This document shows, one piece after another, positions 2,691 through 2,921 of a DNA stretch of 64,000 nucleotides. Position 1 is the first letter of the stretch. Each line of letters opens with the position of its first letter. A program made the translations under genes and the position numbers. The notes under the pieces are model-generated. The model did no database searches and was not told where the DNA came from. It worked only from the letters and a program-made list of their open reading frames with translations. Origin of the DNA: an uncultured Acidobacteriota bacterium (GTDB lineage Bacteria > Acidobacteriota > Thermoanaerobaculia > UBA5066 > Gp7-AA6); NCBI GenBank assembly GCA_963763535.1, contig CAVXOX010000007.1:60556-124555 (forward strand), given 5' to 3'.

Positions 2691-2825
2691 CTGCCCGTAG
2701 CTCAGCCCGGATAGAGCATCAGCCTTCTAAGCTGAGGGTCGCAGGTTCGAGCCGACCACCGAAGGCAGACCCGCAGCAGTAGGCAACGCCGGCCGTCGAG
2801 GCCGGCGGTAATCCTGCCGGGCAGG
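2691..2825 (+). tRNA. tRNA-Arg(TCT)-like gene copy interrupted by a 60-nt insertion in the T-loop; no encoded CCA
   Basis: Positions 2691-2750 are identical to the intact downstream copy through acceptor, D-arm, anticodon arm (loop cttctaa, anticodon TCT) and T-stem up to ggttcga. Positions 2811-2824 (atcctgccgggcag) supply the rest of the T-arm and the 3' acceptor strand. The two parts are separated by 2751-2810. Confidence 0.6.
2751..2810 (+). other. 60-nt intervening sequence inside the T-loop of the first tRNA-Arg copy; contains an 8-bp GC hairpin
   Basis: The sequence gccgaccaccgaaggcagacccgcagcagtaggcaacgccggccgtcgaggccggcggta is absent from the second copy. The internal inverted repeat is cgccggcc-gtcga-ggccggcg. 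Confidence 0.6.
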
Positions 2826-2843
2826 CGAGCGATAATTGAGTTC

Positions 2844-2921
2844 CTGCCCGTAGCTCAGCCCGGATAGAGCATCAGCCTTCTAAGCTGAGGGTCGCAGGTT
2901 CGAATCCTGCCGGGCAGACCA
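2844..2921 (+). tRNA. tRNA-Arg (anticodon TCT) with encoded CCA
   Basis: Cloverleaf folded by hand: acceptor ctgcccg/cgggcag; D-arm gctc..gagc; anticodon stem tcagc/gctga with loop cttctaa; T-arm gcagg-ttcgaat-cctgc; discriminator a followed by cca. Confidence 0.9.

What the first reader, a model, noticed from the sequence alone, without database searches (positions are those of the whole stretch)
2691..2921. Tandem tRNA-Arg(TCT) genes, the first carrying a 60-nt hairpin-containing insertion in the T-loop
The two copies share the 5' leader (gataat[c/t]gagt) and are identical from position 1 of the tRNA to ggttcga in the T-loop.

In copy 1 a 60-nt block (2751-2810) follows, and then the tRNA resumes precisely with atcctgccgggcag. 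The interruption therefore sits after T-loop position ~58 rather than in the anticodon loop where bacterial group I tRNA introns sit. At 60 nt it is far too short for a group I or group II intron.

The insert contains a perfect 8-bp GC hairpin (cgccggcc-gtcga-ggccggcg). Copy 1 also lacks the encoded CCA and has G instead of A as discriminator. It could be any of the following:
- a dead duplicate hit by a small REP/MITE-like hairpin element
- a processed intervening sequence
- a scar of a site-specific recombination event at the T-loop, which is a classical integrase attachment region
Basis: seen in the sequence. Interest (0 to 1): 0.6.

Follow-up and report, generated by a model that had tools for sequence, protein, structure and literature searches.

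The report
Mobile hairpin repeat splitting a tRNA gene
The 60-base block inside the first tRNA-Arg gene is one copy of a small selfish hairpin repeat of an uncultured soil bacterial lineage that lands in the loops of tRNA genes, and the intact gene copy beside it keeps the cell supplied with that tRNA.

Summary
Window 2691-2750 and 2811-2824 equal the intact tRNA-Arg(TCT) gene (2844-2921) base for base, split by 60 nt between T-loop positions 58 and 59.

The 60 nt are neither an intron nor an integrase scar. They are one of six copies in this genome of a ~62-nt structured repeat, here called E. E occurs in 60 of 101 genomes sampled from the same Thermoanaerobaculia family, with up to 68 copies, and in 0 of 298 genomes from other Acidobacteriota families.

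E has a sharp 5' end, a 28-nt nearly invariant core closed by a covarying 3-bp helix, GTAG, a covarying GC hairpin, and no terminal repeats. It sits after an A (usually GA) near the 3' side of hairpin loops: tRNA T-, anticodon and D-loops, other repeats' hairpins, an SLH gene hairpin, and its own mini-loop.

Copy 1 is the resident gene, now dead; copy 2 is the only tRNA-Arg(UCU) gene. In 35 of 146 copies the flank ending at E's 5' end is repeated behind E and continues into an intact gene.

No transposase, integrase or reverse transcriptase could be tied to E. The closest known kinds are GTAG-tagged REPs and IS200/IS605-type mini-elements. Earlier notes of this scan describe similar tRNA-loop elements in other phyla.

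The parts
2678..2690 (+). Resident -10-like box GATAAT (2678-2683, overlapping the TAA stop of the upstream ORF at 2680-2682) and 7-nt leader of copy 1
   Evidence: The same arrangement (stop codon inside GGGGATAAT / GGGGCGATAAT) occurs in relatives with the same upstream gene, L167, L178 and L183. The consensus promoter scan found nothing, so promoter function is inferred.
2691..2750 (+). 5' part of the interrupted resident tRNA-Arg(TCT) gene, positions 1-58, ending GGTTCGA
   Evidence: 60 of 60 identical to 2844-2903. Partial Rfam tRNA match of 29.8 bits.
2751..2810 (+). Repeat element E (60 nt). Helix P1 pairs 2751-2753 with 2782-2784. The conserved core is 2754-2781. GTAG is at 2779-2782. 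The hairpin is 2787-2794 / 2800-2807 with loop 2795-2799. The tail GTA is 2808-2810.
   Evidence: Six copies in the genome. Family alignment and covariation. Fold of -25.7 kcal/mol, z -1.64.
2811..2824 (+). 3' part of the interrupted gene (positions 59-72/73), without discriminator A and CCA
   Evidence: 14 of 14 identical to 2904-2917. 45 of 48 predicted tRNAs of this genome encode CCA.
2825..2843 (+). Junction GCGAGC (found in neither original flank), then a second GATAAT box (2831-2836) and the 7-nt leader of copy 2
   Evidence: The leader differs from copy 1's at 3 of 13 positions.
2844..2921 (+). Intact tRNA-Arg(TCT) gene with encoded CCA, the only one in the genome
   Evidence: ARAGORN. 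Rfam tRNA 69.9 bits.

Best explanation
The 60-nt block is a copy of a non-autonomous mobile repeat, E, about 62 nt long. E is confined to one family of Thermoanaerobaculia (Acidobacteriota).

Shown:
- E has a sharp 5' end.
- A 3-bp helix closes a 28-nt almost invariant core.
- A GTAG motif is followed by a GC hairpin whose sequence varies but whose pairing is kept.
- The 3' tail is short and variable, and there are no inverted or direct terminal repeats.
- E lies directly after an A (mostly GA, followed by A in the uninterrupted target), near the 3' side of the loop of a DNA hairpin.

Inferred: E is copied or pasted as single-stranded DNA into such exposed loops, in the manner of REP and IS200/IS605-type elements. 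The enzyme acts in trans and was not identified. tRNA T-arms, anticodon arms and D-arms are natural targets.

In this window E entered the resident tRNA-Arg(UCU) gene between positions 58 and 59 and inactivated it. The gene can no longer fold as a tRNA and has lost its CCA. A second copy with its own -10 box, 19 nt further on, is now the only working tRNA-Arg(UCU) gene.

This pairing of a broken copy with a regenerated copy is a recurring signature of E. My preferred reading (inferred, about 40% within this explanation) is that E's defined 5' end is joined at the loop and that the far side is resolved by homology with the target gene. This would be a one-ended or template-switch copy-in that carries donor flank. 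It duplicates the target segment, so the hit gene survives. Otherwise, duplication and insertion are separate events and selection keeps only rescued insertions.
For: Repeat family:
- Six copies in the own genome by BLAST, by pattern and by covariance model.
- The pattern occurs in 60 of 101 genomes of the family and in 37 of 39 of the genus, with up to 68 copies. The reversed control pattern gave 0 everywhere.
- It occurs in 0 of 298 genomes of other families of the phylum.
- All 80 listed public hits are Acidobacteriota or Thermoanaerobaculia MAGs.

Anatomy (95-120 distinct copies):
- Column 1 pairs with column 34/35: GC 69 and CG 46 of 120, or GC 53 and CG 37 of 95.
- Hairpin pairs covary, for example GC 35, UA 34 and CG 19 of 95 at one pair.
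- 18 columns are invariant.

Target:
- Position -1 is A in 84 of 104 distinct flanks, and -2 is G in 65 of 104, in a 70% G+C genome.
- Site classes of 154 copies: T-loop-like 26, Ser-GGA anticodon loop 12, Ser-CGA anticodon loop 6, two other hairpin repeats 36 and 21, SLH-type gene end 9, inside another E 8, other 36.
- 35 copies lie within 330 nt of an intact tRNA gene on the same strand, against 3 on the opposite strand.

Dead copy:
- ARAGORN finds copy 1 only without the 60 nt.
- Copy 1 has no CCA, while 45 of 48 tRNAs of the genome encode it.
- There is a single intact tRNA-Arg(tct) gene in the genome.

Resident versus added copy:
- Relatives with the same upstream gene (G065, G009) have one tRNA and no E.
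- Others carry E in T-arm fragments behind the tRNA.
- The closest relative, G027, carries an E with the identical hairpin at this locus.

Recurring duplication:
- 35 of 146 examined copies have the flank that ends at E's 5' end repeated 18-147 nt behind E.
- 22 of these repeats run into an intact tRNA gene.
- Others run into the end of an SLH-domain gene on the other strand.
Against: - No mobilising enzyme was found.
  - Y1 transposase genes are missing from this genome.
  - Their number does not follow E copy number (rho -0.03, n=38).
  - None of 8 Y1 loci has an E or its GTAG hairpin nearby.
  - Y2 transposase, TnpB and reverse transcriptase each occur in 1 of 41 genus genomes, and IS110 in 10 of 41.
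  - 76 ORFs beside 29 copies hold no transposase, integrase or nuclease.
- No filled-versus-empty pair of very close genomes was examined, so movement is inferred from distribution, nesting and copy-number differences.
- Many of the 154 copies are orthologous or belong to amplified composite repeats, so independent insertions are far fewer than 154.
- At this locus the 14-nt 3' part follows E, so E does not lie at the duplication junction. A plain tandem duplication followed by insertion explains this one locus equally well.
- All genomes are metagenome assemblies, and short tandem repeats can be misassembled. Against this, the same architectures recur in many independent assemblies.
Confidence: 0.8

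Rival explanations
1. E is a host-kept functional module rather than a selfish element. The truncated tRNA promoter plus 5' part would drive a chimeric small RNA (tRNA 5' part fused to the conserved core), ended by the GC hairpin. The conserved core would be a protein- or RNA-binding motif.
For: - The core is almost invariant while the hairpin drifts with compensating changes.
- The tRNA-Ser(GGA) arrangement (5' part, E, then intact gene) is kept in at least 12 copies from several species, some doubled in tandem.
- The orphan 5' parts stay 95-100% identical to the live genes.
- E is in the tRNA's orientation in 35 of 38 cases.
Against: - Copy number swings from 0 to 68 among genomes of one genus.
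- Copies sit nested in each other and inside other repeats' hairpins and in a protein gene.
- No Rfam family matches.
- The hairpin is not followed by a T-run, and the terminator scan found nothing.
- Expression could not be tested.
Confidence: 0.1
2. E is the remnant end (attachment arm) of integrase-driven elements that recombine in tRNA T-loops and anticodon loops. The duplicated tRNA pieces would be the usual attL/attR repeats of repeated integration and decay.
For: - The junctions lie in the T-loop and anticodon loop. From my recollection of Williams 2002 (not read here), these are the classical crossover places of tRNA-targeting integrases.
- Relatives carry arrays of T-arm-to-CCA fragments behind the tRNA, some with a T-stem of another tRNA-Arg allele.
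- In 4 of 7 SLH-gene cases the orphan and live gene ends carry different stop codons and unrelated sequence beyond, as if one end had been brought in.
Against: - No integrase lies within about 15 kb of this locus or within 1.5 kb of 29 other copies.
- The DNA between the repeats is only 80-200 nt.
- The 5' part with promoter is duplicated, not the 3' part.
- E also sits in many non-tRNA hairpins with only GA in common, and inside itself.
- T-stems flanking E are mutually complementary, not attL/attR hybrids.
Confidence: 0.07
3. The 60 nt are an intervening sequence removed from the tRNA precursor, so copy 1 is a second working gene.
For: - Both exon-like parts are identical to the live gene.
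- T-stem pairing across E is kept in many loci.
- From recall, T-loop introns at 58/59 exist in some archaea.
Against: - The organism is bacterial: a tmRNA gene is present.
- At 60 nt the block is too small for a group I or group II intron, and there was no Rfam intron or ribozyme match at E <= 10.
- The same element interrupts tRNA pieces that lack the other half, sits in non-tRNA DNA, and sits in a protein gene on the opposite strand.
- Copy 1 lacks the CCA that 45 of 48 tRNAs of the genome encode.
Confidence: 0.03

Closest known systems
GTAG-tagged REP sequences (Di Nocera, De Gregorio & Rocco 2013, PMC3733652; abstract and passages found with 'tRNA', 'target', 'duplication', 'Acidobacter' read)
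   Same: - A short GC-rich hairpin directly preceded by GTAG.
- Tens of copies per genome.
- Often at ends of convergent genes.
- Some REP families sit inside small palindromes (GTAG-23 of Thermomicrobium roseum, per the paper).
- Some REPs lie inside ORFs.
   Different: - E carries 28 further conserved nucleotides 5' of GTAG, closed by a helix.
- No RAYT-type Y1 transposase could be tied to it.
- The passages read mention no insertion into tRNA genes, and the word 'duplication' does not occur in the paper.
IS200/IS605-family elements and their miniature derivatives (single-strand 'peel and paste' transposition; recalled, no paper read here)
   Same: - No terminal inverted repeats and no target duplication of fixed length.
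- Asymmetric ends with subterminal structure.
- Insertion directly 3' of a short specific motif in single-stranded DNA.
   Different: - No full-length parent with the same ends among 154 copies.
- TnpB in 1 of 41 genomes.
- Y1 genes uncorrelated with E copy number and not flanked by E.
- E's hairpin sequence is not conserved, as a TnpA binding site would be.
tRNA-gene integration by integrase-bearing islands and prophages, with a replacement gene end carried by the element (recalled; see also earlier scan notes e1-1274303 and e1-3907054)
   Same: - Breakpoints in the T-loop and anticodon loop.
- The interrupted gene is restored by a duplicated segment.
- An orphan fragment is left beside it.
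   Different: - The insert is 60-200 nt with no integrase.
- The 5' part with promoter is duplicated.
- The element also uses non-tRNA hairpins.
Hairpin mini-elements in tRNA-gene loops with a spare tRNA copy in CPR/Patescibacteria, noted earlier in this scan (e1-825933, e1-4554975, e1-4793440, e1-4980979; AI notes, unchecked)
   Same: - Small GC hairpin elements sitting exactly in tRNA loops.
- One live tRNA copy beside broken ones.
- Judged to be mobile DNA, not introns.
   Different: - A different phylum, and no sequence likeness recorded (one search found none).
- Some of those travel with a GIY-YIG nuclease gene. No nuclease was seen beside E.

Membership tests
REP / RAYT system (GTAG-tagged REPs) | Short GC-rich imperfect palindrome in many copies per genome | tested here: met
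   The hairpin has covarying pairs. There are 6 copies here and up to 68 in relatives.
REP / RAYT system (GTAG-tagged REPs) | GTAG tetranucleotide at the 5' foot of the hairpin, forming the element's end | tested here: inconclusive
   GTAG is present and nearly invariant (columns 29-32). It is internal, however: 28 conserved nt precede it.
REP / RAYT system (GTAG-tagged REPs) | A Y1 (RAYT) transposase gene in the genome, typically flanked by the cognate REPs | tested here: not met
   - No PF01797 match in the own genome.
- 8 Y1 loci of three E-rich genomes carry no E core or GTAGG hairpin.
- No correlation with copy number.
IS200/IS605-derived miniature elements | No inverted terminal repeats, no fixed target duplication, insertion 3' of a short motif | tested here: met
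   Ends are asymmetric. Position -1 is A in 84 of 104 flanks and -2 is G in 65 of 104.
IS200/IS605-derived miniature elements | A full-length parent with the same ends encoding TnpA (and often TnpB) | tested here: not met
   None among 154 copies. TnpB occurs in 1 of 41 genomes. Y1 loci lack E.
Classical MITE | Terminal inverted repeats and a short fixed target-site duplication | tested here: not met
   The alignment of 95 copies shows no inverted termini. The flanks show no fixed short duplication.
Bacterial tRNA introns (group I) | Catalytic core of about 200 nt or more, located in the anticodon loop | tested here: not met
   The block is 60 nt and lies in the T-loop. There was no Rfam intron match at E <= 10.
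Archaeal-type enzyme-spliced tRNA introns | Occur within complete tRNA genes and are flanked by a bulge-helix-bulge motif cut by a splicing endonuclease | tested here: not met
   E occurs in half tRNAs, in non-tRNA hairpins and in a protein gene. The bulge-helix-bulge motif and the endonuclease gene were not searched for.
Integrase-mediated tRNA-gene islands (att scars) | Direct repeat of the tRNA 3' part bracketing DNA that carries, or once carried, an integrase | tested here: not met
   At this locus the 5' part is repeated. Among 19 ORFs within about 15 kb there is no integrase.

The most novel reading that the evidence does not exclude
E represents a kind of mobile DNA not yet described. 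It is a tiny enzyme-less (or host-enzyme-driven) element that enters hairpin loops of essential genes and, in the same event, regenerates the gene it cuts. It would do so by copying or bringing the cut-off segment: promoter plus 5' part for tRNAs, the last codons plus stop for an SLH gene. It thereby escapes purifying selection and leaves tandem arrays of orphan gene pieces. Together with the look-alike elements this scan noted in CPR bacteria, this would mean that 'target-restoring' parasites of tRNA loops are widespread in uncultured bacteria.
Probability: 0.3. Interest if true: 0.8.

Novelty: new variant of a known kind. Interest (0 to 1): 0.55.

Why it matters
For annotation: split tRNA genes of this type are dead copies beside a live one, not bacterial T-loop introns. 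The orphan 5' halves and T-arm fragments around tRNA genes of this lineage come from a repeat, not from prophages.

For biology:
- A 62-nt element with a strongly conserved core is found again and again in tRNA loops. It is accompanied by a segment duplication that keeps the hit gene alive. No known transposase, integrase or reverse transcriptase is attached to it.
- This poses a concrete mechanistic question: how is it moved, and how does the duplication arise?
- It is also a ready source of tandem tRNA duplications, tRNA allele replacement and new 3' ends of surface-protein genes.

Tried and rejected
- **Splicing/intron reading:** rejected (see rivals).
- **Known RNA family:** the Rfam scan of 2500-3100 at E <= 10 gave only the two tRNA matches and weak chance hits (CRISPR-DR29 15.1 bits, COG3860 14.5 bits and others).
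- **Ribozyme idea (HDV-like 5' self-cleavage):** considered by eye. The 7-bp P1 and the other helices are not there. Not pursued.
- **Coding idea:** one frame of the core ends in TAG, and two variable positions fall on third codon positions. The element lies in tRNA genes and in both orientations relative to ORFs, so this was not pursued.
- **RAYT/IS200 link:** searches were negative.
- **Other enzyme links:**
  - IS91-type Y2 transposase: 1 of 41 genomes. The control genomes gave 0, so sensitivity is unproven.
  - TnpB: 1 of 41.
  - Reverse transcriptase: 1 of 41, in a genome without E.
  - IS110: 10 of 41.
- **Neighbouring genes of 29 copies:** housekeeping only. The ORFs were crudely called, and 44 of the 76 had no Pfam match.
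- **Sequencing runs:** no RNA holder listed. Laying contigs of four soil-metagenome DNA runs on 2300-3300 gave only short pieces. These were mostly tRNA parts of other organisms, with no joints and no contig across the locus. Nothing can be said on expression or on population variants.
- **Promoter/terminator consensus scan:** nothing.
- **Long ARAGORN 'tRNAs' (88-99 nt) elsewhere in the genome:** looked at as possible further interrupted genes. They lie in coding-like GC-rich sequence and look like false positives.
- **Literature:** three full-text searches found no description of a repeat inserted in bacterial tRNA T-loops with regenerating duplications. This is a limited search, and only listings were seen, except for PMC3733652.

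Full report
**1. The observation**

- Window 2691-2750 is the first 60 nt of a tRNA-Arg(TCT) gene, ending GGTTCGA in the T-loop.
- 2751-2810 is a 60-nt block.
- 2811-2824 (ATCCTGCCGGGCAG) resumes the tRNA.
- GCGAGC, a second GATAAT box and a 7-nt leader follow.
- 2844-2921 is an intact tRNA-Arg(TCT) gene with encoded CCA.

The two exon-like parts are 60/60 and 14/14 identical to the intact gene. The leaders differ at 3 of 13 positions. ARAGORN calls only copy 2. It calls copy 1 a tRNA-Arg(tct) only when the 60 nt are removed in a script. Rfam's tRNA model scores copy 2 at 69.9 bits and the 5' part of copy 1 at 29.8 bits. Nothing else in 2500-3100 reaches a gathering score. Copy 1 has G instead of the discriminator A and no CCA, whereas 45 of 48 predicted tRNAs of this genome encode CCA. 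Copy 2 is the only intact tRNA-Arg(tct) gene in the 4.62-Mb, 70% G+C assembly.

**2. The block is a repeat**

The 60 nt occur six times in the genome, by BLAST, by a degenerate pattern (reversed control 0) and by a covariance model built later. Their contexts were the turning point.
- Two further copies follow truncated 5' parts of tRNA-Ser(CGA) and tRNA-Ser(GGA) that end right after the anticodon. In each case the intact gene, with a duplicated promoter region, lies 120-175 nt downstream.
- One copy sits in a T-loop-like remnant (GGGGGTTCGA | E | ATCCC...CCGCCA).
- Two copies lie in intergenic palindromes next to gene ends.

So four of six copies are in tRNA-derived loops.

**3. Distribution**

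The core pattern (up to 2 mismatches) occurs in 60 of 101 genomes sampled from the same family. That includes 37 of 39 of the same genus, with 0 to 68 copies per genome; the control pattern gave 0 in all. In a sample of the phylum it occurs in 0 of 298 genomes of other families. All 80 listed are MAGs labelled Acidobacteriota, Acidobacteria or Thermoanaerobaculia. From these loci I collected 172 copies, 154 with distinct context.

**4. Anatomy**

I call the element E.
- Its 5' end is sharp.
- The first 34 nt are nearly invariant, except for three small variable patches.
- Position 1 covaries with position 34 (GC 69, CG 46 of 120). With positions 2-3 and 32-33 this makes a 3-bp helix closing a 28-nt core.
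- GTAG (29-32) is followed by a GC hairpin. Its sequence differs from copy to copy while pairing is kept: at one pair GC 35, UA 34, CG 19 and AU 6 of 95, and 7 of 12 predicted pairs show double changes.
- After the hairpin comes a short tail (consensus GGTAAC). One subfamily continues with a further ~10 conserved nt.
- There are no inverted termini and no fixed short target duplication.

The copy in the window folds to -25.7 kcal/mol, which is not exceptional for its composition (z -1.64). The strong conservation of the core beside a freely drifting hairpin argues for a cis-acting site under constraint.

**5. Where it sits**

The base before E is A in 84 of 104 distinct flanks, and the one before that is G in 65 of 104. 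Where the uninterrupted target can be read from a duplicate, the next base is A. This holds for the T-loops, both Ser anticodon loops, the Ser(TGA) D-loop and the SLH gene cases.

Sites fall near the 3' side of hairpin loops. Of 154 copies:

| Site class | Copies |
|---|---|
| T-loop-like | 26 |
| tRNA-Ser(GGA) anticodon loop | 12 |
| tRNA-Ser(CGA) anticodon loop | 6 |
| First other hairpin repeat family | 36 |
| Second other hairpin repeat family | 21 |
| 3' end of SLH-type genes | 9 |
| Mini-loop of another E (nested copies) | 8 |
| Other | 36 |

The SLH site also lies in a 7-bp hairpin. The gene product matches Pfam SLH at 37.4 bits. 35 copies lie within 330 nt of an intact tRNA gene on the same strand, against 3 on the opposite strand. 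Many of these copies are orthologues or members of amplified composite repeats, so the counts are copies, not independent events.

**6. The locus in relatives**

All 40 other genus genomes sampled hold a tRNA-Arg(TCT) match.
- Relatives that share the upstream gene (G065, G009) have a single tRNA and no E.
- G071 has the tRNA followed by an array of T-arm-to-CCA fragments, each with E in its loop.
- Several others have tRNA, 4-8 nt, then such a fragment with E.
- The closest relative (G027, 77% identical in the upstream gene) has the tRNA inverted. Next to the downstream flank it has a T-arm fragment whose E carries the identical hairpin to ours.

The locus is therefore an old and busy site. 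In G065, G009 and G071 the tRNA's GATAAT box overlaps the stop codon of the upstream gene, exactly as for copy 1 here. By position, copy 1 is therefore the resident gene and copy 2 the added one (inferred). The 6 nt between the copies match neither original flank, so the locus is not a clean tandem duplication.

**7. A recurring signature**

In 60 of 146 copies with enough flank, upstream and downstream sequence share a direct repeat. In 35 of these, the repeat ends within 2 nt of E's 5' end. It recurs 18-147 nt long behind E and there continues into an intact gene.
- 22 continue into a tRNA gene with its promoter region.
- Others continue into the last ~8 codons plus stop of an SLH gene on the opposite strand.

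The live copy is always on E's 3' side, whatever the gene's own direction. In 4 of the 7 SLH cases printed (L035, L084, L100, L144), the orphan and the live end are 96-100% identical over 24-25 nt. Yet they carry different stop codons at the same position and unrelated sequence beyond. That is not what a simple local duplication would leave. It fits a gene end brought in with E's 3' flank, or a copy-in whose far side is resolved by homology. At the window's locus the 14-nt 3' part follows E, so E is inside the first unit and not at the junction. Here both a separate duplication and a cassette of 'E plus donor flank' fit.

**8. What moves it**

No integrase, transposase, nuclease or reverse transcriptase is among 19 ORFs within about 15 kb of the locus. 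None is among 76 crudely called ORFs within 1.5 kb of 29 copies in 29 relatives. Candidate families in the genus sample of 41 genomes:

| Family | Genomes with a match | Further result |
|---|---|---|
| Y1 transposase | 28 of 41; absent from this genome | Does not follow copy number (rho -0.03, n=38). 6 of 16 genomes with at least 17 copies lack it, and both E-free genomes have it. 8 Y1 loci carry no E. |
| Y2 transposase | 1 of 41 | |
| TnpB | 1 of 41 | |
| Reverse transcriptase | 1 of 41 | In an E-free genome; |
| IS110 | 10 of 41 | |

An RNA-copy route is thus very unlikely. The mobilising activity is an unrecognised protein, a subset of the Y1 genes acting in trans, or host replication/recombination.

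**9. Explanation and comparison**

The best-supported reading is a REP-like, single-strand-type mobile repeat that enters hairpin loops after GA. It has killed the resident tRNA-Arg(UCU) gene, and the neighbouring copy carries the function. E shares the GTAG-plus-hairpin design of GTAG-tagged REPs, some of which sit in small palindromes (PMC3733652, passages read). It shares the end asymmetry and motif-directed insertion of IS200/IS605-type elements (recalled). It fails the membership tests that need a cognate transposase or a full-length parent. It also differs by its 28-nt 5' core, by its strong use of tRNA gene loops, and by the regenerating duplications. The splicing reading and the pure integrase-scar reading are not supported.

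Earlier notes of this scan describe small hairpin elements in tRNA loops with a spare tRNA copy in CPR bacteria. I did not test them, and no sequence likeness to E is on record. Three literature searches turned up no description of such an element.

**10. Limits**

- All genomes are metagenome assemblies.
- Expression could not be examined.
- Movement is inferred, not observed.
- The coupling of insertion and duplication is my preferred but unproven step.

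Noticed in passing
own genome G000:C5:1293387-1293472 (+) and C5:1266680-1266742 (-); outside the window: The same element follows truncated 5' parts of tRNA-Ser(CGA) and tRNA-Ser(GGA) that end right after the anticodon. 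The intact genes, with duplicated promoter regions, lie 120-175 nt downstream. The Ser(GGA) arrangement recurs in many relatives, sometimes doubled in tandem.
   Followed up: yes
own genome G000:C12:104744-104806 (-); outside the window: A copy of E lies in a T-arm/acceptor remnant resembling the 3' end of tRNA-Ser(TGA), beside a further degenerate tRNA 3' end. No live tRNA is nearby; the live tRNA-Ser(tga) gene is 42 kb away.
   Followed up: partly
L035 (G074), L084, L100, L111, L129, L133, L144 and others: E lies on the opposite strand, about 25 nt (145 nt in L133) before the stop codon of genes for SLH-domain surface proteins. The cut-off C-terminal codons plus a stop are repeated so that the gene stays open. 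In 4 of 7 cases the orphan and live ends use different stop codons.
   Followed up: partly
L166 (G027:C16), the closest relative's tRNA-Arg(TCT) locus: The intact tRNA gene is inverted relative to both flanking genes. It faces a T-arm-to-CCA fragment that carries an E with the same hairpin as the window's copy. The fragment's T-stem is that of another tRNA-Arg allele.
   Followed up: partly
L038, L062, L138, L159, L164, L111: Copies of E are nested in the small CC-GAA-GG loop of another E, so the element carries its own target site.
   Followed up: partly
window 2678-2683: The GATAAT box of the resident tRNA gene overlaps the TAA stop of the upstream 814-aa Sortilin/BNR-repeat gene (238-2682). 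The same overlap is kept in relatives.
   Followed up: partly
window 2751-2782 and all copies: In one frame the conserved core reads as nine codons ending in the invariant TAG. Two of its variable positions (11 and 23) fall on third positions of proline codons. This is probably a coincidence, but GTAG repeats are known to donate stop codons to neighbouring ORFs.
   Followed up: no
window 2986-3144 (+): A small 52-aa ORF just behind the tRNA gene matches DUF5670 (30.7 bits).
   Followed up: no
own genome, nine places listed: ARAGORN calls nine 86-99-nt 'tRNAs' inside GC-rich coding-like sequence. They look like false positives, not interrupted genes.
   Followed up: partly
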